The position numbers were made by a program, and so were the translations under genes. The notes under the pieces are model-generated. The model saw nothing but the letters and a program-made list of their open reading frames with translations. It did not search any database and was not told the DNA's origin. DNA of 64,000 nt from a virus: the IMG/VR virus record IMGVR_UViG_3300025646_000012, positions 1-64,000 of that record, one strand, 5' to 3'. Each line of letters starts with the position of its first letter. Position 1 is the first letter of the stretch. Of this stretch, positions 1 to 6,890 are shown one piece after another.

Positions 1-5
1 TAACT

Positions 6-81
6 TGGTGGAGAATAGCGGGATCGAACCGCTGACCTACTGCTTGCAAAACAGTCGCTCTCCCAACTGAGCTAATTCCCC
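6..81 (-). tRNA. tRNA-Ala(TGC)
   Basis: Reverse complement GGGGAATTAGCTCAGTTGGGAGAGC...; anticodon arm ACTGT-TTTGCAA-GCAGT; GGTTCGATCC T-loop; encoded CCA. Confidence 0.95.
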
Positions 82-85
82 AAAA

Positions 86-175
86 TGGCGGTGAGGGTGG
101 GATTCGAACCCACGGTAGACTTCCGCCTACGCTGGTTTTCAAGACCAGATCCTTAAACCACTCGGACACCTCACC
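86..175 (-). tRNA. tRNA-Ser(TGA)
   Basis: Cloverleaf with long variable arm; CTGGT-CTTGAAA-ACCAG; G73, CCA. Confidence 0.95.
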
Positions 176-177
176 AT

Positions 178-251
178 TGGTTGCGCAGGGAGGAATTGCA
201 CCTCCGTCTCCAGTTTATGAGACTGGTGAGTTACTTTTACTCTACCGCGCG
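178..251 (-). tRNA. tRNA-Met(CAT), initiator-like acceptor stem
   Basis: C1xA72 mismatch, G2-C71, C3-G70, A11-U24; anticodon arm CCAGT-CTCATAA-ACTGG; T-loop TGCAATT; CCA. Confidence 0.85.
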
Positions 252-258
252 TCAGTAT

Positions 259-335
259 TGGCGTTCCCGGAAGGACTCGAACCCTCAACCTACTGATTAG
301 AAGTCAGTTGCTCTATCCTGTTGAGCTACGGAAAC
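259..335 (-). tRNA. tRNA-Arg(TCT)
   Basis: ACTGA-CTTCTAA-TCAGT anticodon arm; CCA. Confidence 0.95.
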
Positions 336-337
336 AT

Positions 338-413
338 TGGCTCCCCAGGATGGATTCGAACCACCGACACACTGATTAACAGTCAGTTGCAACTACCGCT
401 GTGCTACTGGGGA
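338..413 (-). tRNA. tRNA-Asn(GTT)
   Basis: TCCCCAG/CTGGGGA acceptor; ACTGA-CTGTTAA-TCAGT; G73, CCA. Confidence 0.93.
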
Positions 414-414
414 A

Positions 415-431
415 TAAATTGTCAAAGAGCA
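415..431 (-). promoter_or_regulatory. rrn-type boxA antitermination site upstream of tRNA array A
   Basis: TGCTCTTTGACAATTTA, one mismatch from the E. coli rrn boxA region TGCTCTTTAACAATTTA; identical copy at 3255-3271. Confidence 0.8.
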
Positions 432-487
432 TGAGCCTTTTAACGTCTTGCTCAGGACCGCTTCGTTCACATCGTAAATTATATATA

Positions 488-601
488 TCAGTCTTTGGAG
501 AATTCTTTCACACGGCGCCGGAATTCATTGAACTCACTGAGCAAGTAACCAGCACCAAATGAAATAAAGATGATAGCTGCAAGAGCGATGTACATTTCCA
601 T
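488..601 (-). CDS. small single-pass membrane protein, 37 aa (not in ORF track)
   Basis: MEMYIALAAIIFISFGAGYLLSEFNEFRRRVKEFSKD*; AAGGA RBS; directly downstream of ORF 613..996. Confidence 0.65.
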   Translation of the reverse strand: MEMYIALAAIIFISFGAGYLLSEFNEFRRRVKEFSKD

Positions 602-612
602 GATATATTTCC

Positions 613-996
613 TTATGCTGCGTGCTTCAGTTCAAATTCAAGATCAGCAAACCGAGGATCGGTATCATTACAAGCGTAGTACCAACCAAAACCATCAAAG
701 AGATAGAGATAGTGAGCACCACAGTAATCGTAACCATTCTTCATGAAGTCCTCAACGGATTCGTAAGGGACCGTAGGTTCATTTACATGAACCGAATCTG
801 CAATCGATGTATCCAGATCATCCTGGAGAGAGGAAAGATAACCAACCGTAGCAACTGCTTTTGCCAATTCAGGAGTATTGTAGAGATTTACAAGAGTACG
901 ACCAACACCTTCAACATAACCATCATAATGAACATATGACGCCTCAACCGAACCATCTTCGTGGTTGTAGAAGCCGATCATTGCATGAGTACCCAT
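613..996 (-). CDS. conserved phage hypothetical protein (Y-x-H-Y-D-G-Y motif), early
   Basis: 127 aa ORF with AAAGGA RBS and an upstream early promoter; MGT..IG...YVHYDGY..GVG pattern recalled from phage hypotheticals. Confidence 0.75.
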   Translation of the reverse strand: MGTHAMIGFYNHEDGSVEASYVHYDGYVEGVGRTLVNLYNTPELAKAVATVGYLSSLQDDLDTSIADSVHVNEPTVPYESVEDFMKNGYDYCGAHYLYLFDGFGWYYACNDTDPRFADLEFELKHAA

Positions 997-1031
997 AGTG
1001 TAGTTTCCTTTGTTTCAAACCTTATATTAGT

Positions 1032-1060
1032 AATATAAACCATTCTACACAAATGTAAAC
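1032..1060 (-). promoter_or_regulatory. T4-type early promoter
   Basis: GTTTAC-N17-TATATT; same architecture at 2141-2169 and 54133-54161. Confidence 0.8.
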
Positions 1061-1108
1061 CCCCCATTTGCATTTTTTTTAAAAATAGTTTTGAGGGATT
1101 TCAATCAC

Positions 1109-1609
1109 TTATACTTTTTCTGCAAAATTTGTTTGATCACCACGACCGTTGACGATGCCATCCGCACCAAAGCTTGCAGCCCAACTCTCTGGTTTCAACT
1201 TTGGTTGGATACCAGTCACACCAAGGACATACCCTGCTGCTTCACTTGCTGCACAGTTTGAACCGTGCTTAGGATCAGTGTTGATATCAAGGTGGATCTC
1301 AATATCAAATTCATCAATGAATGGAGCCAGTTGTGTGTAGAGTTCTACAACCTTCTGAACTTCTTTCATCATACGAACCTTAGGTCGATTCGGCTTCAGA
1401 TCAAAGTCTCTCTCACGTGATACACTTGAAAAGATTCTGCAACCATTCTTGCCGTTCTTGTGTACGATAGCAACAGCGGCAAATCTTGCCATTTGATTGT
1501 TATTGCGATCAATATAACGAACTGAGTCACAACCGAGATAGATCTTTGTTTCTGCATTACATTGAATCAGAAGATCTACCATATCTGTGATTTGGTCTTC
1601 GGTAAGCAT
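1109..1609 (-). CDS. RNase H-like YkuK (DUF458) family protein
   Basis: IYLGCDS, IEIHLDIN and KPESWAASFGAD motifs. Confidence 0.75.
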   Translation of the reverse strand: MLTEDQITDMVDLLIQCNAETKIYLGCDSVRYIDRNNNQMARFAAVAIVHKNGKNGCRIFSSVSRERDFDLKPNRPKVRMMKEVQKVVELYTQLAPFIDEFDIEIHLDINTDPKHGSNCAASEAAGYVLGVTGIQPKLKPESWAASFGADGIVNGRGDQTNFAEKV

Positions 1610-1621
1610 GGTATTTCCTTT

Positions 1622-2110
1622 TTATTTTTTCTGGGTACTGAGATAAAGATCCTCACCTTCTATTTCAGCTCGTTCAGTCCACTTGGTTTCAATTGCACCT
1701 ATTTGAGGTGCATAAATTTCAATAATTTCACCTGTAACATTATCAATGTAATTATTTTTTATTCTAGGTATTGAGTGGGCATAAATTTCAATTTTTACAT
1801 GCCCAAATGCAAAACGTTTATCAATTTCAATACGAATTTTTTTATTTGTTCGTTCATTAGGATTTGGATTACAATAGGTCCCTGCACGATTGTAAAAGCC
1901 GGTAGCTCCACCAGCCTTACCAATTTTTACAAGTTCATCATAAATATACATGCCATAGACAACATCACCCATGGCAATAAGTTCTTTGCGTGTTAAATTG
2001 GTATTGAACTTCATGCGCATCATCTTCTCTCCAGAAGAATCAATGCCTTCTACAAATGTAAAGTAACCTAAGTAAACACCTTTTACCTTGATATTTTCGG
2101 CAAGTGACAT
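1622..2110 (-). CDS. GIY-YIG family nuclease, T4 endonuclease II (DenA)-like
   Basis: VYGMYIYDELVKIGKA...R...KIEIYA...IE resembles T4 EndoII IYAIAINDELVYIGKT...KVEFYA...LE. Confidence 0.6.
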   Translation of the reverse strand: MSLAENIKVKGVYLGYFTFVEGIDSSGEKMMRMKFNTNLTRKELIAMGDVVYGMYIYDELVKIGKAGGATGFYNRAGTYCNPNPNERTNKKIRIEIDKRFAFGHVKIEIYAHSIPRIKNNYIDNVTGEIIEIYAPQIGAIETKWTERAEIEGEDLYLSTQKK

Positions 2111-2140
2111 TGGGTCGGCCCTTTTTCATTTCATAGTAGT

Positions 2141-2169
2141 AATATAATCACTTCTACGAGAATGTAAAC
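2141..2169 (-). promoter_or_regulatory. T4-type early promoter
   Basis: GTTTAC-N17-TATATT upstream of ORF 1622..2110. Confidence 0.8.
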
Positions 2170-2198
2170 CCCTAAAATGCAAATAAATGCAAAAATTT

Positions 2199-2274
2199 TG
2201 GTACTGAGTTCAGGATTCGAGCCTGACCTTCCAGATCCACAATCTGGTGTGCTGACCGCTAACACTAACTCAGC
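2199..2274 (-). tRNA. tRNA-His(GTG), alphaproteobacterial type (no G-1)
   Basis: CCAGA-TTGTGGA-TCTGG; G1-U72, A73; base at -1 is T. Confidence 0.92.
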
Positions 2275-2275
2275 A

Positions 2276-2363
2276 TGGCGGAACGACTGGGAGTCGAACC
2301 CAGTGAACCTCGAAAGGTTCTACAGATTAGCAATCTGCTGCATTACCATCCTGCCCTCGTTCC
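2276..2363 (-). tRNA. tRNA-Ser(GCT)
   Basis: GCAGA-TTGCTAA-TCTGT; long variable arm with TTCG loop; CCA. Confidence 0.93.
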
Positions 2364-2367
2364 ATTT

Positions 2368-2443
2368 TGGTGCCTAGAGAGGGAATTGAACCCCCGACAC
2401 CATGCTCTTCAGGCACGTGCTCTACCAACTGAGCTATCTAGGC
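2368..2443 (-). tRNA. tRNA-Phe(GAA)
   Basis: CGTGC-CTGAAGA-GCATG; CCA. Confidence 0.93.
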
Positions 2444-2448
2444 GTTAT

Positions 2449-2525
2449 TGGAGCTCCCGGAAGGACTCAAACCCTCAACCTTCTGGTTCGTAGCCAGGTG
2501 CTCTATTCAGTTGAGCTACGGAAGC
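2449..2525 (-). tRNA. tRNA-Arg(ACG)
   Basis: CCTGG-CTACGAA-CCAGA; CCA. Confidence 0.92.
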
Positions 2526-2530
2526 AAACT

Positions 2531-2607
2531 TGGTAGACCCTGCGGGTGTCGATCCCGCTTCTTCACCTTGAAAGGGTGAGATCCTAGCCAGCGTAGACGA
2601 AGGGTCC
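2531..2607 (-). tRNA. tRNA-Glu(TTC)
   Basis: TCACC-CTTTCAA-GGTGA; CCA. Confidence 0.92.
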
Positions 2608-2611
2608 GTAT

Positions 2612-2695
2612 TGGTGGGTGTCTTAGGAATCGAACCTAACATGCTTCTCAGCGACGGAGTTACAGTCCGCTGCCTCACCTTGAGGCGACACACCC
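2612..2695 (-). tRNA. tRNA-Tyr(GTA)
   Basis: GCGGA-CTGTAAC-TCCGT; variable arm; CCA. Confidence 0.92.
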
Positions 2696-2697
2696 AT

Positions 2698-2771
2698 TGG
2701 TTGTCCTAGGAAGAATCGAACTTCCATATGACGATTATCAGTCGCCCGCTCTACCGTTGAGCTATAGGACA
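2698..2771 (-). tRNA. tRNA-Ile(GAT)
   Basis: GGCGA-CTGATAA-TCGTC; CCA. Confidence 0.92.
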
Positions 2772-2777
2772 GTATTT

Positions 2778-2853
2778 TGGTGAACCGGGTGGGGATCGAA
2801 CCCACGTTGACACGGATTAAAAGTCCATCGCTACACCACTCAGCTACCGGTCC
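2778..2853 (-). tRNA. tRNA-Lys(TTT)
   Basis: ATGGA-CTTTTAA-TCCGT; CCA. Confidence 0.92.
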
Positions 2854-2859
2854 TTAAAT

Positions 2860-2936
2860 TGGAGTGCGTGACTGGACTCGAACCAGCATGAAACGGATTT
2901 GCAATCCGTGGCCTAACCATTCGGCTACACACGCAC
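2860..2936 (-). tRNA. tRNA-Cys(GCA)
   Basis: ACGGA-TTGCAAA-TCCGT; U73; CCA. Confidence 0.9.
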
Positions 2937-2941
2937 AATAT

Positions 2942-3016
2942 TGGCGAAGGTGGAGAGAATCGAACTCCCGACACGCGGTTTTGGAGACCGCTGCTCTACC
3001 ACTGAGCTACACCAAC
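2942..3016 (-). tRNA. tRNA-Trp(CCA)
   Basis: GCGGT-CTCCAAA-ACCGC; G73; two U.U mismatches in the acceptor stem. Confidence 0.88.
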
Positions 3017-3023
3017 GTATTCT

Positions 3024-3097
3024 TGGATGCCCGAATAGGGGTCGAACCTATATTCTCTGACTCAAAATCAGATGTCCTGCCATTAGACGATCGGGCA
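3024..3097 (-). tRNA. tRNA-Gln(TTG)
   Basis: TGCCCGA/TCGGGCA acceptor; TCTGA-TTTTGAG-TCAGA; CCA. Confidence 0.9.
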
Positions 3098-3098
3098 A

Positions 3099-3169
3099 TG
3101 GGGGTAACTGATTGAATTGAACAATCTCTACAGGCTTATGAGACCCGTGCCTAGACCACTAGAGTTACC
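3099..3169 (-). tRNA. non-canonical tRNA with CAT anticodon (71 nt, shortened D-arm, C73)
   Basis: Perfect GGTAACT/AGTTACC acceptor; CGGGT-CTCATAA-GCCTG; GATTG-TTCAATT-CAATC T-arm; CCA; D region only 15 nt. Confidence 0.7.
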
Positions 3170-3173
3170 ATTA

Positions 3174-3248
3174 TGGTGCCGGTGGAGAGATTTGAACTCC
3201 CGACCTTTGCTTTACAAGAGCACTGCACTACCACTGTGCTACACCGGC
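3174..3248 (-). tRNA. tRNA-Thr(TGT)
   Basis: GCCGGTG acceptor; GTGCT-CTTGTAA-AGCAA; CCA; first tRNA of array B. Confidence 0.93.
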
Positions 3249-3254
3249 GTTTTC

Positions 3255-3271
3255 TAAATTGTCAAAGAGCA
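3255..3271 (-). promoter_or_regulatory. rrn-type boxA upstream of tRNA array B
   Basis: TGCTCTTTGACAATTTA, identical to 415-431. Confidence 0.8.
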
Positions 3272-3308
3272 AGGAAGATTGATGTGATCGCTTCGTTCCA
3301 ATTTGTAT

Positions 3309-3338
3309 AGTATAACCAGTTCTTTTGTAAAAGTAAAC
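3309..3338 (-). promoter_or_regulatory. early-type promoter for tRNA array B
   Basis: GTTTAC-N18-TATACT. Confidence 0.65.
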
Positions 3339-3379
3339 AACTTTGTTTTGTTACTTTTCAATTACTTAGCATTTTTATC

Positions 3380-3416
3380 AAAAAAAACCCTCCGAACCGG
3401 TTGGTTGGAGGGTTTT
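3380..3416 (-). terminator. intrinsic terminator (attenuator hairpin 3:4)
   Basis: AAAACCCTCC-AACCAACCGGTTC-GGAGGGTTTTTTTT. Confidence 0.85.
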
Positions 3417-3440
3417 GGTACTCGTTAACTTACTAACCTG

Positions 3441-3548
3441 TTAACTTCCATACCCCTCCACGTGCTTAGTCCATTCTGAGCCCATAGTGAATCGGCCACA
3501 GAAGACTGTGTTCGTAATCTGGAGTGGATATGTGGTTATAGTAATCAT
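3441..3548 (-). CDS. putative attenuator leader peptide, 35 aa (not in ORF track)
   Basis: MITITTYPLQITNTVFCGRFTMGSEWTKHVEGYGS*; AGGA about 12 nt upstream; overlaps segments complementary to the terminator arm. Confidence 0.6.
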   Translation of the reverse strand: MITITTYPLQITNTVFCGRFTMGSEWTKHVEGYGS

Positions 3549-3614
3549 TGAAAGTAGTATTCCTGTTTTGTCAATATTATATATACATTAGATTTATTGT
3601 AAGTAAATAGTTTA

Positions 3615-4112
3615 ATGAAATATTTAGCAATTTTTGTTTTATTGGGTGGTTGTTTGCCCATTCTACAATTAGAGTCCACCCAATCAACATTTTCTATAGA
3701 TGTTGCCGATGAATTTGTGGGTATGGATGAAAGAAATCACAGAGAAGAACTTAAAGAATTTATGGGTATTGACCCAGTACGATATGAATGGTGCGCTGCA
3801 TTTGTAAATGCTGTGCTTAATATTCAAGGAATTCCTGGATCTGAGTCTGTAAGTGAATACCCACTCTTGGCAAGAAGTTTTTTAACCTGGGGTGAAGAAG
3901 TAACCGACGAACTGAAACCAGGTGATATTATTATTTTTCCACGTGGCAGAGAAGGTTGGCAAGGACACGTTGGTTTTTATGTTCGGACAAAATATATTGA
4001 TGATGTAAAATATTATTTAATACTTGGCGGAAACCAAGATAACAGTGTTACATATGAATTATTTCCAGCAAGGTTTATGATAGCTCAACGAAGATATGTA
4101 ACCGAGGAATAA
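3615..4112 (+). CDS. TIGR02594-family NlpC/P60-like cysteine peptidase with lipoprotein signal
   Basis: WCAAFVN, PGDIIIF, GHVGFY, LGGNQ motifs; N-terminal MK + hydrophobic stretch + LLGG-C lipobox. Confidence 0.8.
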   Translation: MKYLAIFVLLGGCLPILQLESTQSTFSIDVADEFVGMDERNHREELKEFMGIDPVRYEWCAAFVNAVLNIQGIPGSESVSEYPLLARSFLTWGEEVTDELKPGDIIIFPRGREGWQGHVGFYVRTKYIDDVKYYLILGGNQDNSVTYELFPARFMIAQRRYVTEE

Positions 4113-5999
4113 TTATCTAGCGTTTCCAGCACCACCTCCTCCACCACGTCTGACAATTAAATCATTTCCATCTACGGCACCATTACTTGGAAACTGGAAT
4201 GTTTCATATTGTTGTGCAAAATTATTTACAACCGTTTGATTCACACCTTGGGTATTAGCAGCTCTAGCTAATACAGCTTCAGTCTCAGATCTTACAAGCC
4301 GCAGATCTCTTTCAGCCGCTTCAAGTTGTTCTGCATAAAATCCTCCAGTGTCGCCTGTTGCTGCAATATTTTCATTAATTGAAGTGATGCGATCAGCTAA
4401 AGCTTGCATTGTTTCAAATTGAGTGGATAATATATTTTCTGCTTCCTCAGTTGATGAAAATGGAAGATAACCTGATAATCCTAGAAAATCAACAATTCTA
4501 CCAGGCCCGAGAGCTCTTGCAATGCTTGCTTTAATTTCGTCCATACTTGGAATTAAACCTATTAAAAATTCACCAAGTTGAGTTACATATCTGGTAATTT
4601 TTTGAGTAAATGTTTCACCTTCAGGGACAATATTCTCATCTCCAGTAAATGCTCTTTCAATCTCGGATAAGAGTACATTTATTGGATGGAAAACTATATT
4701 AGCTAATACTCTAAAAATTCCTCCGACATTTGATGCAATACCTCTTACTGATGTCCAATTTCCCCACCAAGTATTCCAAGCTTCTCTTGCTTTTGCCTGC
4801 CCTTCTTCGGTAGTATCTTTAGCACCAGTTAGATTTCTTACATGATCAATGGCACGACCAACAGCATCAAATGGTGCTTGAATTAATTCTTTGATCATTC
4901 TAACAAAATCTACATCTTCAACTGTAGCAAGTAATGATGTAAACCAGTTACCACCTTCCTCACCTCTTTTGAAAGTACCATCCTCATTTAACCAGTCTGC
5001 TGGGACAATTTGTTTGATAAGCCACAAAGGCATATCTTTTATTAAATTTGCAAATTCACCAAAGAATGAACCTAAGGTTCCAGAAACAAATCCACCAATA
5101 CCACCACCAATTAAACGATCAAATGTACCCTCTCTATCTTCCATTTCAGCCGCGGCATTTTCAACACCATCAAATAATGAAAATATAAAAGCAATAGGTT
5201 GAAGGAATCTAAAAATACCGCGTACAAGCCTACTATTTGCAAAACCACTAACCGCACCTCTTGCACCACCACCAAGTGCATTTGATATAGTTTTAGTTAC
5301 ACCAGTAAATGTGTTTAAAATTGCTGGTGGAACTCTTAATGCTTTAAAGAAATTACCAATTCTACCAAAAAGATTATTAAGTGAAATAAGAGTTTTTTGA
5401 TAAAAACTTACATCTCTTGCAGAAACAAATCGAGTATTGCCAAATCTAGCAAGTCTTTGAAATTGACCTGCAGCTGCATTAAATGAATATCTTCTTGCAA
5501 AGAAATTATCAATGGCTTTTATTTGATTTGAAAGATATGTTCCAATATTGCCAATACCTCTACCAATACGAAATTCTTTATTCAGATTGGATGCCAAAAT
5601 TCTTAATGGCATAAAAAATGTATTGGCAATTGATCTTACAAAAAAACGAAAATTAGCAAGTGATGGTCCAAGACCTTCTGTAGCAAGAACAAGTCCGGTA
5701 GCAAAAGAAGCAACGCCGCCGACAAATCTAATTACATAACTAATAGCATCGCCAAACATACCACTACCAAAACCCAAGTCTCTCTCTTCAGATCTTGCAA
5801 TGGAAGCTGATTTTCTTCTTTCTTTTTCAGAGTCTGCCTCTTTTTGTCTTAACGCCTGTAATTCCAAGTACTCAAGGAATCCTCGAAGCGTACCAGAAAG
5901 ATTCTCAACAGCTTTAGTGGTATCACCTTGCTCTCTGAGTTGTCTTTCATTATCCGAACGTAATCTAGCAATTACATCGTTAAGAGTTGCATCAGCCAT
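4113..5999 (-). CDS. baseplate hub / tape measure protein (gp29-like)
   Basis: 628 aa, helical and Gly/Ala/Phe-rich with hydrophobic segments; syntenic directly after gp26/gp51. Confidence 0.6.
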   Translation of the reverse strand: MADATLNDVIARLRSDNERQLREQGDTTKAVENLSGTLRGFLEYLELQALRQKEADSEKERRKSASIARSEERDLGFGSGMFGDAISYVIRFVGGVASFATGLVLATEGLGPSLANFRFFVRSIANTFFMPLRILASNLNKEFRIGRGIGNIGTYLSNQIKAIDNFFARRYSFNAAAGQFQRLARFGNTRFVSARDVSFYQKTLISLNNLFGRIGNFFKALRVPPAILNTFTGVTKTISNALGGGARGAVSGFANSRLVRGIFRFLQPIAFIFSLFDGVENAAAEMEDREGTFDRLIGGGIGGFVSGTLGSFFGEFANLIKDMPLWLIKQIVPADWLNEDGTFKRGEEGGNWFTSLLATVEDVDFVRMIKELIQAPFDAVGRAIDHVRNLTGAKDTTEEGQAKAREAWNTWWGNWTSVRGIASNVGGIFRVLANIVFHPINVLLSEIERAFTGDENIVPEGETFTQKITRYVTQLGEFLIGLIPSMDEIKASIARALGPGRIVDFLGLSGYLPFSSTEEAENILSTQFETMQALADRITSINENIAATGDTGGFYAEQLEAAERDLRLVRSETEAVLARAANTQGVNQTVVNNFAQQYETFQFPSNGAVDGNDLIVRRGGGGGAGNAR

Positions 6000-6186
6000 A
6001 TTTCATAGACCTTCGTTTTTCTTCTTCTTTTTGTTCTTTCAGATGATCAAGTAGCATGTTCAAATAAACTTCCCTTTCCCAAGGTATTAGCATTTCAATT
6101 TCAGTCAAAGAGTAATGATGATGCTGCATTAATGAAAAGTTTACAGTATAATGATTTGCTAAATTATCATGAGAAAGGCATATTAA
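5992..6186 (-). CDS. gp51: gp51-like baseplate assembly segment, probably reached by -1 frameshift from gp26 (internal ATG at 6129)
   Basis: Frame reads LICLSHDNLANHYTVNFSLMQHHHYSLTEIEMLIPWEREVYLNML...; YSLTEIE.LIPWERE.Y is the typical gp51 motif of T4-like phages; missing from ORF track. Confidence 0.8.
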   Translation of the reverse strand, partial: LICLSHDNLANHYTVNFSLMQHHHYSLTEIEMLIPWEREVYLNMLLDHLKEQKEEEKRRSMKYG

Positions 6187-6890
6187 AAAAAATCGGACAT
6201 ACCTTCCAGTTTAATATTATTAGTTTCACCACAGCTAACACAATTAAAATCTACATTATGAATCAATCTAGGCATTTGTTCAATATAAGCACTTACTTTT
6301 TGGAATTGATCCTTTGTCATTGAATCAATAAATTCTTCAAGTTCTTTCACTGGAACATCTTTAGTACTAATACGTTCATCATTTGTATGAATAGCTGCAA
6401 TACACTTACCGATCATAGCAAAAGCATTTTGTGCCATAGATTTAGTATCTTTAATTCCAAGAGAAATAAGATCATCATAACTTGGCCATTTCATTTCCAA
6501 AGTAATTTCAGATGTTAATTCAATAGTGTTTGAAATCTTAGGTACATCAATTTTAATAGATGAAACATCAATAGCTATTTCATTACTAGTTTCACAATGT
6601 TTACACTTAATACCAACCTTTGATGTTTCACCAACAGATTTAGCTCTAATCTGAGTAAACATATACTCAACATCAAAGATTGTAAGTTTATCTTTTTCAA
6701 TATCGTTCTGGACACAAGCTGTAATTGTATCCACAACCGCATTTAGAATCGCGTTCATATCTTGCGATTCCATTGCCATCATTAAAACTTTTTCTTCTTT
6801 TACCAAATATGGACGATATTTTACCTTTTTATTCTGAGAAGGGATTACAATATCATACTTTGGTGTGTCATTCAACTTAGGTAAAGTCAT
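6183..6890 (-). CDS. gp26: baseplate hub assembly chaperone
   Basis: LPKL..PKY...YRPYLVKEEKVL, FDVEYMF.QIRAKSVGE, two CxxC, ends EGMSDFF. Confidence 0.9.
   Translation of the reverse strand: MTLPKLNDTPKYDIVIPSQNKKVKYRPYLVKEEKVLMMAMESQDMNAILNAVVDTITACVQNDIEKDKLTIFDVEYMFTQIRAKSVGETSKVGIKCKHCETSNEIAIDVSSIKIDVPKISNTIELTSEITLEMKWPSYDDLISLGIKDTKSMAQNAFAMIGKCIAAIHTNDERISTKDVPVKELEEFIDSMTKDQFQKVSAYIEQMPRLIHNVDFNCVSCGETNNIKLEGMSDFF

What the first reader, a model, noticed from the sequence alone, without database searches (positions are those of the whole stretch)
3380..3548. Leader-peptide attenuator upstream of the 13-tRNA array: a possible sensor of tRNA depletion
Seen (minus strand): a 35-codon ORF (3548-3441), MITITTYPLQITNTVFCGRFTMGSEWTKHVEGYGS, followed by a strong terminator. 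Four segments can pair in mutually exclusive ways. Segment 1 CATATCCACTCCA (3532-3520) pairs with segment 2 TGGAGGGGTATG (3460-3449), 12 bp with one bulge. Segment 2 can instead pair with segment 3 CCAAAACCCTCCA (3418-3406), extended by an inner GTTAAC/GTTAAC helix, forming an antiterminator. Segment 3 pairs with segment 4 GGAGGGTTTT to form the terminator. Segment 2 lies in the last codons of the peptide. The peptide contains 18 of 20 amino acids (only Ala and Asp absent), including all 13 served by the downstream tRNAs. It has 7 Thr using all four Thr codons (tRNA-Thr is first in the array) and many GC-ending or rare codons (GGC, GGG, CTC, GTC, ACG, CAG, CGA, ATA). Established: this is the 1:2 / 2:3 / 3:4 geometry of trp, thr and his attenuators, and host anticodon nucleases deplete tRNAs during infection. 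Inference: stalling caused by loss of almost any tRNA would allow read-through into the phage tRNA array, an inducible counter-defence I do not know to be described. Caveat: a separate early promoter (3309-3338) lies downstream of the terminator, so the attenuator would give a second, conditional input, and the RBS spacing is long.
Basis: partly seen in the sequence, partly recalled or inferred. Interest (0 to 1): 0.88.

Follow-up and report, generated by a model that had tools for sequence, protein, structure and literature searches.

The report
Ribosome-gated terminator before phage tRNA genes
A tiny reading frame wired to a switchable transcription stop sits in front of the tRNA genes of this lake phage and at least 13 relatives. 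It probably lets the phage make more tRNA when protein synthesis runs slowly.

Summary

I found 13 further distinct homologous cassettes in uncultured T4-like phage contigs. All lie inside tRNA arrays on the tRNA strand.

- **Shared layout:** promoter, open 20-40-codon frame, a "segment 2" complementary to the terminator's 5' arm, a stop codon inside the predicted antiterminator stem, a stop-to-terminator gap of 21-34 nt, then a strong terminator.
- **Peptides:** they are barely conserved.
- **Covariation:** segment 2 covaries with its own terminator (0 of 20,000 permutations).
- **Read-through:** in 7 of 14 cassettes a promoter-less tRNA or a boxB/boxA leader starts 10 nt or less after the terminator, so read-through must occur.

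Not supported:
- The 1:2 helix is no better than shuffles and is not conserved.
- There is no run of regulatory codons.
- The window's leader is no richer in array-served codons than ordinary genes (62% against 58%).
- Across the family, leaders match their own arrays only modestly (p about 0.01-0.07).

**Verdict:** most likely a ribosome-gated antiterminator/terminator attenuator of the tRNA array (about 0.58). A tRNA-depletion or counter-defence role is untested inference. No expression data exist. Earlier notes of this scan describe the same idea on unrelated phage DNA.

The parts
3576..3603 (-). sigma-70-like promoter of the leader transcript (CTTACA-16-TATAAT)
   Evidence: 10 of 12, the best match in 1-6200. 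All 13 relatives show a TTGACA/TTTACA-type -35 upstream by eye. An automatic strict score of 9/12 or more was reached in 8 of 14.
3561..3564 (-). AGGA, possible Shine-Dalgarno, 12 nt before the ATG (long)
   Evidence: The spacing is 11-13 nt in 8 of 13 cassettes. The phage's own genes mostly use 6-10 nt.
3441..3548 (-). leader ORF, 35 codons plus stop
   Evidence: Frame 0 is open in 13 of 13 cassettes examined, while frames +1 and +2 carry stops in 11 and 13 of 13. Chance of being open is 0.08-0.28 per cassette.
3520..3532 (-). segment 1 (pairs with segment 2 in the window's minimum-energy fold)
   Evidence: It is not better than shuffles (44 of 300) and is not conserved in position among relatives.
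3449..3460 (-). segment 2 (core GGAGGG 3459-3454), alternative partner of the terminator's 5' arm, in codons 30-33
   Evidence: It is the best upstream partner of the terminator arm. It ends 1-11 nt before the stop in 11 of 11 parsed cassettes and covaries with its own segment 3.
3424..3445 (-). apical hairpin GTTAAC...GTTAAC; its 5' arm contains the stop codon TAA (3443-3441)
   Evidence: Every one of 13 cassettes has a small hairpin here with a different sequence. The stop codon lies inside the predicted antiterminator stem-loop in 13 of 13.
3403..3418 (-). segment 3 = 5' arm of the terminator (3416-3403) with two preceding C
3380..3398 (-). segment 4 = 3' arm of the terminator (3398-3384) and T run
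   Evidence: -20.0 kcal/mol. A natural variant contig keeps the stem through paired changes.
3309..3337 (-). second promoter-like site between the terminator and the tRNA leader
   Evidence: 9 of 12. An equivalent site is present in 5 of 14 cassettes.
3259..3299 (-). rrn-type leader: boxB-like hairpin (GGAA 3299-3296 / TTCC 3276-3273) and boxA-like TGCTCTTTG (3271-3263)
   Evidence: The stem covaries (GGAA/TTCC, GGGA/TCCC, AGAAA/TTTCT). It matches 8 of 9 positions of the E. coli rrn boxA consensus UGCUCUUUA (PMC6614797, passage read).
2199..3248 (-). first tRNA block: Thr, CAT-tRNA-like, Gln, Trp, Cys, Lys, Ile, Tyr, Glu, Arg, Phe, Ser, His

Best explanation
This is a ribosome-gated transcription attenuator in front of the phage's tRNA array.

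**How it would work**
- A sigma-70-type promoter (3603-3576) makes a short leader RNA that carries a 35-codon ORF.
- Segment 2, inside the last codons of the ORF, can pair with the 5' arm of the terminator. Together with the small hairpin that contains the stop codon, it forms an antiterminator.
- If a ribosome has reached the end of the ORF when RNA polymerase makes the terminator, it covers segment 2 and melts the inner hairpin. The terminator then forms and transcription stops at about 3380.
- If the ribosome lags or stalls earlier in the ORF, segment 2 captures segment 3 first. In most relatives the same is predicted if the ribosome is absent. Polymerase then reads on into the boxB/boxA leader and the tRNA genes.
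- The output is therefore more tRNA-array transcription when decoding is slow.

**Shown by sequence comparison:** the parts, their order, the covariation, and the need for read-through in relatives.

**Inferred:** translation of the ORF, the timing logic, and the physiological signal. In the window a separate promoter behind the terminator also feeds the array, so the gate would add a conditional input.
For: 1. **Family.** There are 14 distinct cassettes with the same order of parts, all inside tRNA arrays on the tRNA strand.
   - Among the distinct, non-truncated boxB contexts of the viral-contig scan, 11 of 11, plus the window's own, have a cassette about 10-300 nt upstream.
   - So do 5 of the 5 genuine metagenome hits that have upstream sequence.
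2. **Frame.** Frame 0 is open in 13 of 13, while the other frames are closed in 11 and 13 of 13.
   - Peptides are almost unalignable and have the composition of translated random sequence.
   - A 1-nt indel between L041 and L055 changes the frame through segment 2, yet the ORF stays open.
   - A variant contig carries a net 3-nt deletion in the ORF.
3. **Segment 2.** The best upstream partner of the terminator's 5' arm ends 1-11 nt before the stop in 11 of 11 parsed cassettes. Shuffles did as well in 0-27 of 300.
4. **Covariation.**
   - Own segment 2 against own segment 3 gives -14.7 kcal/mol, against -12.0 for other cassettes. This was reached in 0 of 20,000 permutations, and also in 0 of 20,000 with 3 close relatives removed.
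   - In a fixed register, pair 3 is A-U in 10 and G-C in 4 cassettes.
   - In five cassettes segment 2 has a C opposite a G of segment 3, where the terminator's own T tract gives only G-U. L045 and L049 show it in the fixed register. L016, L032 and L048 show it once a bulged C is allowed.
5. **Geometry.** The stop-to-segment-3 distance is 21-29 nt in 12 of 13 cassettes and 34 in one. The stop lies inside the predicted antiterminator in 13 of 13.
6. **Model.** With a ribosome in the first two thirds of the ORF, segment 3 is paired to segment 2 with probability mostly 0.5-0.98. The probability drops sharply, to near its minimum, once the P site reaches the last 6-10 codons.
7. **Specificity.** Of 73 terminator-like hairpins in all held loci plus the whole 121-kb genome, 18 have an upstream complement of -12 kcal/mol or better. 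Only 9 of those also have an ORF ending between the two, and all 9 are family members.
8. **Read-through is needed.**
   - In L029 and L040 the boxB/boxA leader starts 10 nt or less after the T run.
   - In L041, L032, L048, L050 and L097 a tRNA gene starts 5-7 nt after it. There is no room for a promoter.
Against: - There is no expression data. The only RNA run held one contig, from a relative, touching the boxB/boxA part.
- The AGGA to ATG spacing is long (12 nt; 11-13 in 8 of 13) compared with 6-10 in the phage's genes, so translation is unproven.
- At equilibrium the terminator state is 4-11 kcal/mol more stable than the antiterminator in 11 of 13 cassettes. The switch therefore must be kinetic.
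- The 1:2 helix of classical attenuators is not supported.
- One natural variant (L124) has an uncompensated A-to-C change in the middle of segment 2.
- In 5 of 14 cassettes, the window included, a promoter follows the terminator, which makes the gate partly redundant.
- The window's second tRNA array has the boxB/boxA-like leader but no cassette.
- There is no run of regulatory codons. In the window the leader's codons are served by the array no more than ordinary genes' codons are (62% against 58%).
Confidence: 0.58

Rival explanations
1. This is a stand-alone early gene for a small protein, with its own promoter and a leaky terminator. The tRNAs behind it are made by unregulated read-through, and the 2:3 complementarity has another role or none.
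For: - The unit has a promoter, an open frame and a terminator.
- A Cys codon sits at codon 17 or 18 in 8 of 13 leaders, with both TGT and TGC used.
- Several leaders share short motifs such as QI.N, GRF and EW.
- Phage terminators are often leaky (general knowledge).
Against: - Peptides are nearly unalignable, and their composition equals that of the off-frames (Cys 4.3% against 3.7%).
- Close pairs differ by non-synonymous changes. All 3 ORF differences between L029 and L124 are non-synonymous.
- A frame shift through the C-terminus is tolerated (L041 against L055).
- There was no Pfam match for 4 of 4 peptides tested at E up to 1, apart from one hit below the cut-off.
- This reading does not explain the covariation of segment 2 with segment 3, the stop codon inside the antiterminator stem, or the fixed stop-to-terminator distance.
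Confidence: 0.14
2. This is an untranslated riboregulator or small RNA. The antiterminator/terminator choice is set by a protein, an RNA (for example a tRNA) or temperature rather than by a ribosome, and the ORF is incidental. Alternatively, the roughly 190-nt terminated RNA itself acts in trans.
For: - The leader is strongly structured (z = -4.16).
- The Shine-Dalgarno spacing is long.
- In 12 of 13 cassettes 2:3 forms without any ribosome in the model.
- Terminated attenuator RNAs can act in trans in other bacteria (PMC6614838, abstract seen in the listing).
Against: - The frame is open in 13 of 13 with the stop always just after segment 2. The product of the per-cassette chances of an open frame is about 7e-12, but this is not corrected for relatedness.
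- An in-frame deletion and a frame-preserving stop shift occur in natural variants.
- There is no Rfam family, T-box included, at E up to 1 in the window or in L029, nor at gathering score in five loci.
- No conserved single-stranded motif was seen.
Confidence: 0.16
3. It is a chance ORF next to an ordinary terminator that merely insulates the tRNA array from upstream late transcription.
For: - In the window alone, the 1:2 and 2:3 pairings are only borderline against shuffles (44 and 17 of 300).
- The minus-strand 628-aa gene ending at 4113 could send transcripts towards the array.
Against: The whole arrangement is conserved in 14 distinct cassettes with covariation.
Confidence: 0.03

Closest known systems
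Leader-peptide transcription attenuators of enterobacterial amino-acid operons (trp, his, leu, phe; multivalent thr and ilvGMEDA). Textbook knowledge, recalled; PMC1183508 abstract seen in the listing.
   Same: Both have a short ORF upstream of an intrinsic terminator, mutually exclusive antiterminator (2:3) and terminator (3:4), and a ribosome at the end of the ORF that masks segment 2 so that termination follows. A slow ribosome gives read-through.
   Different: There is no run of regulatory codons and no supported 1:2 helix, so untranslated RNA would read through in most members. The genes controlled are tRNAs, not biosynthetic enzymes. The element is carried by a phage. It matches no Rfam leader family.
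Ribosome-stalling attenuators in front of antibiotic-resistance genes, which sense general inhibition of translation. Recalled: Term-seq work of 2016; not read here.
   Same: Both have a small upstream ORF of no conserved peptide sequence, and any stall in it flips a terminator/antiterminator pair. They sense translation stress rather than one amino acid.
   Different: The known cases respond to drugs and control resistance proteins. Here the output would be tRNA genes, and the inducer is unknown.
rrn-operon antitermination leader (boxB, boxA, boxC; Nus factors, SuhB). PMC6614797, passages read.
   Same: The element directly behind the cassette is a hairpin followed by TGCTCTTTG, 8 of 9 positions of the boxA consensus UGCUCUUUA. 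The order is boxB then boxA, as in rrn leaders. It precedes stable-RNA genes.
   Different: It is a neighbour of the finding, not the finding itself. Binding of NusB/NusE was not tested. No GU-rich boxC was looked for.
Anabaena long tRNA array (trn operon), silent until translation is impaired. PMC8421152, abstract read; a repressor, TrcR, is named in the abstract of PMC10272220 (listing).
   Same: An accessory tRNA array is expressed more when the translation machinery is in trouble. This is the same logic proposed here.
   Different: That control is by a transcriptional repressor in a bacterium, not by a leader ORF and terminator in a phage.
Earlier notes of this scan on other phages (e1-5618024, e1-3450868, e1-4047519, e1-4040834, e1-3412744, e1-4045671, e1-5943215, e1-4047717).
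   Same: They report the same idea: a promoter, mini-ORF and terminator in front of phage tRNA blocks, with an in-ORF copy of the terminator arm.
   Different: They concern unrelated DNA; a look-up with 3250-3610 found no look-alike. Those notes stress leaders built from the array's amino acids, which in this family is only a weak signal.

Membership tests
Classical leader-peptide attenuator (trp/his/thr type) | Short translatable ORF upstream of a Rho-independent terminator | tested here: met
   The ORF is 3548-3441 and the terminator 3416-3380. The same holds in 13 relatives. Translation itself is not shown.
Classical leader-peptide attenuator (trp/his/thr type) | Mutually exclusive antiterminator (2:3) and terminator (3:4) | tested here: met
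   conserved, correctly placed and covarying.
Classical leader-peptide attenuator (trp/his/thr type) | 1:2 anti-antiterminator / pause hairpin | tested here: not met
   It is present in the window's fold, but shuffles do as well in 44 of 300. In relatives the figure is 15-277 of 300, with no conserved position. Without a ribosome, 12 of 13 are predicted to form 2:3.
Classical leader-peptide attenuator (trp/his/thr type) | Run of codons for the regulated amino acid at the stall site | tested here: not met
   There are no tandem runs. The 7 Thr of 35 are found in the window only.
Classical leader-peptide attenuator (trp/his/thr type) | Match to Rfam leader models (Thr, Trp, His, Leu leaders) | tested here: not met
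   No such hit at E up to 1 in 1-6000.
tRNA-matched leader attenuator of phage tRNA arrays (proposed in earlier notes of this scan, unpublished) | Leader built from the amino acids or codons that the downstream tRNAs read | tested here: inconclusive
   - **Window:** 62% of leader codons are readable by the array, against 58% in 41 long ORFs.
- **Nine cassettes:** 55% in the leader frame against 37% in the off-frames (p = 7e-7). Own against permuted arrays gives p = 0.07.
- **Real genes:** in the eight cassettes with long ORFs, the expectation from real genes is about 46%, my hand sum.
- **Ten cassettes:** p = 0.012 by amino-acid presence and p = 0.028 by residues. Trp agrees in 10 of 10.
- None of this is corrected for shared descent.
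T-box riboswitch | Specifier loop and T-box antiterminator recognised by the Rfam model | tested here: not met
   No hit.
rrn-type boxB/boxA antitermination leader (neighbouring element) | boxA sequence close to UGCUCUUUA, preceded by a hairpin | tested here: met
   TGCTCTTTG lies at 3271-3263 after the hairpin 3299-3273. It is conserved with stem covariation in 12 distinct viral-contig contexts and 6 metagenome contigs. The consensus is from PMC6614797.
rrn-type boxB/boxA antitermination leader (neighbouring element) | Recruitment of NusB/NusE and resistance to Rho | not testable with these tools
   This needs biochemistry or genetics.

The most novel reading that the evidence does not exclude
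Freshwater and marine T4-like phages gauge the host's decoding capacity with a disposable test ORF. When ribosomes lag, polymerase passes the gate, picks up the boxB/boxA (Nus) modification and runs through the whole tRNA array. The lag could come from a tRNA shortage through codon mismatch, host shut-off or tRNA-cleaving defence nucleases. The leader's amino-acid set drifts together with the array's tRNA set: Trp agrees in 10 of 10 cassettes, Cys in 9 of 10 and Gln in 10 of 10. The gate would thus be a feedback loop on exactly the tRNAs the phage can supply, that is, an inducible counter-measure to tRNA depletion.
Probability: 0.22. Interest if true: 0.85.

Novelty: new variant of a known kind. 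Interest (0 to 1): 0.62.

Why it matters
Why phages carry tRNA genes, and how those genes are expressed, is still debated. The competing ideas are codon compensation and replacement of tRNAs destroyed by host defences; PMC10264068 and PMC11555353 bear on this, and I saw only their abstracts in the listing.

A translation-sensing gate in front of the arrays would mean that phage tRNA supply is regulated by need, not constitutive. It would extend leader-ORF attenuation from amino-acid and synthetase genes to tRNA genes themselves. My four literature searches found no description of such a control. They cover open-access papers and bioRxiv only.

The cassette is small, about 190 nt, and self-contained, so it can be tested in reporter constructs even though the phages are uncultured.

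Tried and rejected
**Searches that found nothing useful**
- Rfam. Only tRNAs and sub-threshold noise appeared in the window 1-6000 at E up to 1, in five relatives' loci at gathering score, and in L029 3150-4000 at E up to 1.
- Cultured phages.
  - blastn of 3250-3700 and of L029 3560-3760 against the phage collection gave no match.
  - The nearest cultured relative by baseplate wedge protein, Phage C48C1 (45.6% identity), gave only chance-level matches to a relaxed boxB pattern: 2 matches against 2 in the control.
  - So no culturable carrier was found.
- The exact 35-nt terminator string found 0 matches in viral contigs.
Only 6 have a boxA-like sequence behind; the other 112 are taken as chance.

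**Sequencing runs**
- All runs are kept as contigs.
- The single RNA run has one contig of a relative covering 3150-3181 and 3271-3299. Nothing covers the leader.
- This says nothing about expression either way.

**Alignments**
- MAFFT alignments A1-A4 did not keep the helices in register.
- I therefore did not use fold_alignment or the count of structure pairs and built no covariance model.
- Covariation rests on my own scripts.

**Ideas tested and dropped**
- 1:2 pairing: tested and not supported.
- Cys enrichment in leaders looked striking (4.3% against 0.5% in the proteome). It equals the off-frame value (3.7%), so it reflects non-protein-like composition. Non-initiator Met is enriched (6.8% against 2.7% off-frame) and this remains unexplained.
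- Segment 2 as an internal Shine-Dalgarno sequence (GGAGG). This was rejected as the general explanation, because L049, L056 and L050 have GGGG-type cores that follow their own terminators. A contribution in the GGAGG members is not excluded.
- Pfam on 4 of the 14 leader peptides found nothing above the cut-off.

**Not done**
- No search of the large protein collections with the peptides.
- PHROGs was not run on the peptides.
- No structure prediction.
- Supplementary files of papers were not consulted.

**Coverage of the first locus set**
- Of the 37 loci found through the neighbouring hydrolase gene, only four distinct ones hold a cassette: L005=L006, L016, L029=L030 and L032.
- In L003, L004, L027 and L034 the equivalent spacer holds a different small ORF without this terminator.
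Full report
**What is there**

- A 35-codon ORF runs from 3548 to 3441.
- An AGGA lies 12 nt before its ATG.
- A strong terminator has a 14-nt arm, loop AACC and a 15-nt arm with one bulge (-20.0 kcal/mol), followed by eight T.
- The whole leader (3375-3575) folds better than all 200 shuffles (z = -4.16).
- A promoter-like site at 3603-3576 (10 of 12) precedes the ORF, and a second at 3337-3309 (9 of 12) follows the terminator.

Behind the second promoter lies a hairpin plus TGCTCTTTG. This matches 8 of 9 positions of the E. coli rrn boxA consensus UGCUCUUUA, and the order is boxB then boxA as in rrn leaders (PMC6614797, passages read).

The array's first block is 12 tRNAs by ARAGORN plus one sub-threshold CAT-anticodon tRNA-like gene.

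**The genome**

The genome is an uncultured T4-like myovirus.
- Baseplate, tube and sheath families match.
- The nearest cultured relative has only 45.6% identity in the wedge protein.
- The record is 121 kb and judged 67% complete.
- The DNA runs that hold most of the stretch are labelled freshwater metagenomes.

**Relatives**

- Searching viral contigs with the neighbouring hydrolase gave 37 loci.
- Searching with the conserved boxB motif gave 19 loci.
- A metagenome scan gave 118 stretches, of which only 6 are genuine.

From these I extracted 13 further distinct cassettes: L005, L016, L029, L032, L040, L041, L045, L048, L049, L050, L055, L056 and L097. Near-identical copies and variants also turned up (L006, L030, L071, L082, L124, L166).

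Every cassette lies inside a tRNA array, on the tRNA strand. Among the distinct, non-truncated boxB contexts of the viral scan, 11 of 11, plus the window's own, have a cassette upstream. The window's second array (boxB/boxA-like at 468-415) has none, so the cassette is common but not obligatory.

**What is conserved**

- **The reading frame, not the peptide.**
  - Frame 0 has no stop in 13 of 13, while frames +1 and +2 have stops in 11 and 13 of 13. The chance of an open frame is 0.08-0.28 per cassette.
  - The peptides are 20-40 residues, barely alignable, and have the composition of translated non-coding DNA.
  - Close pairs differ by non-synonymous changes (L029 and L124).
  - L041 and L055 differ by a 1-nt indel that changes the frame through segment 2, while the ORF stays open and stops a few codons later.
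  - A variant contig in another lake run has a net 3-nt deletion in the ORF and rebuilt the upper terminator stem by paired changes.
- **Segment 2.** The best partner of the terminator's 5' arm anywhere upstream ends 1-11 nt before the stop codon in 11 of 11 parsed cassettes. Shuffles did as well in 0-27 of 300.
- **Covariation.**
  - Each segment 2 fits its own segment 3 better than those of other cassettes: -14.7 against -12.0 kcal/mol. This was reached in 0 of 20,000 permutations, and the result is the same after dropping three close relatives.
  - When the terminator core changes from CCCTCC to CCCCGG, CCCCGA, CCCCC or CCCCTC, segment 2 changes with it.
  - In five cassettes segment 2 carries a C opposite a G of segment 3, where the terminator's own T tract can only offer G-U. 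L045 and L049 show this in the fixed register. L016, L032 and L048 show it once a bulged C is allowed. This shows selection on 2:3 independent of 3:4.
- **Geometry.**
  - A small hairpin of ever-changing sequence sits between the ORF end and the terminator.
  - The stop codon lies inside the predicted antiterminator stem-loop in 13 of 13.
  - The stop-to-segment-3 distance is 21-29 nt in 12 cassettes and 34 in one.
- **Specificity.** Among 73 terminator-like hairpins in all loci and the whole genome, the combination of an upstream complement and an ORF ending between them occurs 9 times. All 9 are in family members.
- **Need for read-through.** In L029 and L040 the boxB/boxA leader begins 10 nt or less after the T run. 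In L041, L032, L048, L050 and L097 a tRNA gene begins 5-7 nt after it. These RNAs can only be made by polymerases that pass the terminator.

**What is not supported**

- **The 1:2 helix.** It exists in the window, but shuffles of the upstream sequence do as well in 44 of 300. In relatives the best partner of segment 2 is no better than shuffles (15-277 of 300). It lies anywhere from the ribosome-binding region to mid-ORF.
- **Behaviour without a ribosome.** In a simple model (RNA up to the terminator loop, ribosome footprint removed), the untranslated leader forms 1:2 only in the window: the probability of 2:3 is 0.15. In the other 12 the probability of 2:3 is 0.52-0.87.
- **What the family switch really is.** It has three segments: 2:3 against 3:4, with the ribosome at the ORF end as the factor that removes segment 2. 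In the model, 2:3 is favoured while the P site is in the first two thirds of the ORF and collapses over the last 6-10 codons.
- **Kinetics.** At equilibrium the terminator state is still 4-11 kcal/mol lower in 11 of 13. The choice must therefore be kinetic, as in classical attenuators.

**Codon content**

- The window's leader has 7 Thr, and tRNA-Thr comes first in the array. The relatives do not share this.
- In the window, 62% of leader codons are readable by the 17 downstream tRNAs, against 58% in 41 ordinary long ORFs.
- Over nine cassettes, the leader frame is richer in array-readable codons than the off-frames (55% against 37%, p = 7e-7).
- Over the eight of them with long ORFs, it is only modestly richer than real genes (about 46% expected; my hand calculation).
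- Matching each leader with its own array rather than a permuted one gives p = 0.07 for codons. It gives p = 0.012 for amino-acid presence and p = 0.028 for residues.
- The clearest single signal is Trp. It is present in the leader and as a tRNA in 5 cassettes, and absent from both in 5. This includes the close pair L048 (both present) and L032 (both absent).
- These tests are not corrected for shared descent or for trying several statistics, so I call them suggestive.

**Most likely mechanism**

It is a ribosome-gated attenuator. Timely arrival of the ribosome at the stop codon gives termination. A lagging ribosome gives read-through into the boxB/boxA leader and the tRNA genes. In most members an absent ribosome would do the same.

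I infer, without test, that the boxB/boxA element then makes the elongation complex resistant to Rho over the long untranslated array. That would make the cassette the gate and boxA the commitment step.

Whether the physiological signal is general slowing of elongation, a shortage of particular tRNAs, or damage by host tRNA nucleases cannot be decided from sequence.

Points against this reading:
- the long AGGA to ATG spacing;
- the lack of any expression data;
- an uncompensated segment 2 change in L124;
- the promoter behind the terminator in 5 of 14 cassettes.

**Comparison and novelty**

It works like the trp/his/thr attenuators. It fails two of their defining features, the 1:2 helix and a regulatory codon run, and it matches no Rfam family.

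In logic it is closer to stall-sensing attenuators of resistance genes (recalled). Its proposed output resembles that of the Anabaena tRNA array, which is induced by translational stress through a repressor (PMC8421152, abstract).

Four literature searches found no leader-ORF control of tRNA genes in phages. Earlier notes of this scan report the same idea on other, unrelated phage DNA, and a sequence look-up found no look-alike of this family.

I class it as a new variant of a known kind.

Noticed in passing
window 3259-3299 and 415-468 (minus strand); L029, L040, L045 and others: An rrn-type boxB hairpin plus a boxA-like TGCTCTTTGACAA precedes both tRNA arrays. It is conserved, with covarying stems, in 12 distinct viral-contig contexts and 6 metagenome contigs.
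   Followed up: partly
window about 3099-3169 (minus strand); similar genes in L032, L040, L045, L048, L056: A CAT-anticodon tRNA-like gene with a degenerate D arm. It scores 26.7 bits in Rfam, below threshold, and ARAGORN calls it only at a relaxed setting. Relatives carry the same odd 'tRNA-Met' with the anticodon at position 30-31.
   Followed up: partly
L029 about 3240-3700 (minus strand); L005 454-560 (minus strand); also L045, L041: Behind boxA, many relatives have a conserved GNRA-capped hairpin (GTCYTAG..GTAA..GATGATRGAC). They also have long stems of the type TCTATTTTCACATGCA ... CAGTGCAGYTGAAAATAGA that enclose tRNA-like pieces. There is no Rfam match. They may be processing signals or unknown RNAs.
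   Followed up: no
L007-L013, L035, L036: Relatives carry permuted (two-piece type) tmRNA genes with tags of the ANDN...ALAA kind near the same hydrolase gene. This hints at alphaproteobacterial hosts (recalled association).
   Followed up: no
L016, L029, L041, L045, L055, L097 upstream of the leader ORF: Most of these six have TTGACA followed after 15-16 nt by TATAAATA; L045 has TTCGAA after 17 nt. The second motif equals the T4 late-promoter motif (recalled), so these leaders might be transcribed both early and late.
   Followed up: no
ends of leader ORFs in L016, L032, L048, L041, L049, L056: Six of 14 leaders end in ATG-stop. In four of them the ATG lies 3-4 nt after GGAGG, a start-stop-like arrangement that could hold a ribosome on segment 2 without translation of the whole ORF.
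   Followed up: no
window 488-601 (minus strand); L055 between the terminator and tRNA-Met: Small hydrophobic ORFs sit inside the tRNA regions. One is 37 aa in the window, directly before the second array's boxB/boxA-like leader. One is about 25 aa in L055.
   Followed up: no
leader ORFs, codon 17 or 18: A Cys codon, either TGT or TGC, stands at codon 17 or 18 in 8 of 13 leaders, although the peptides are otherwise poorly conserved. Non-initiator Met is also enriched (6.8% against 2.7% in the off-frames).
   Followed up: partly
L124 (variant of L029): Segment 2 reads GGCGGG instead of GGAGGG with no change in segment 3, while the same contig shows a compensated pair in the terminator stem. This is a counter-example to strict conservation of 2:3.
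   Followed up: partly
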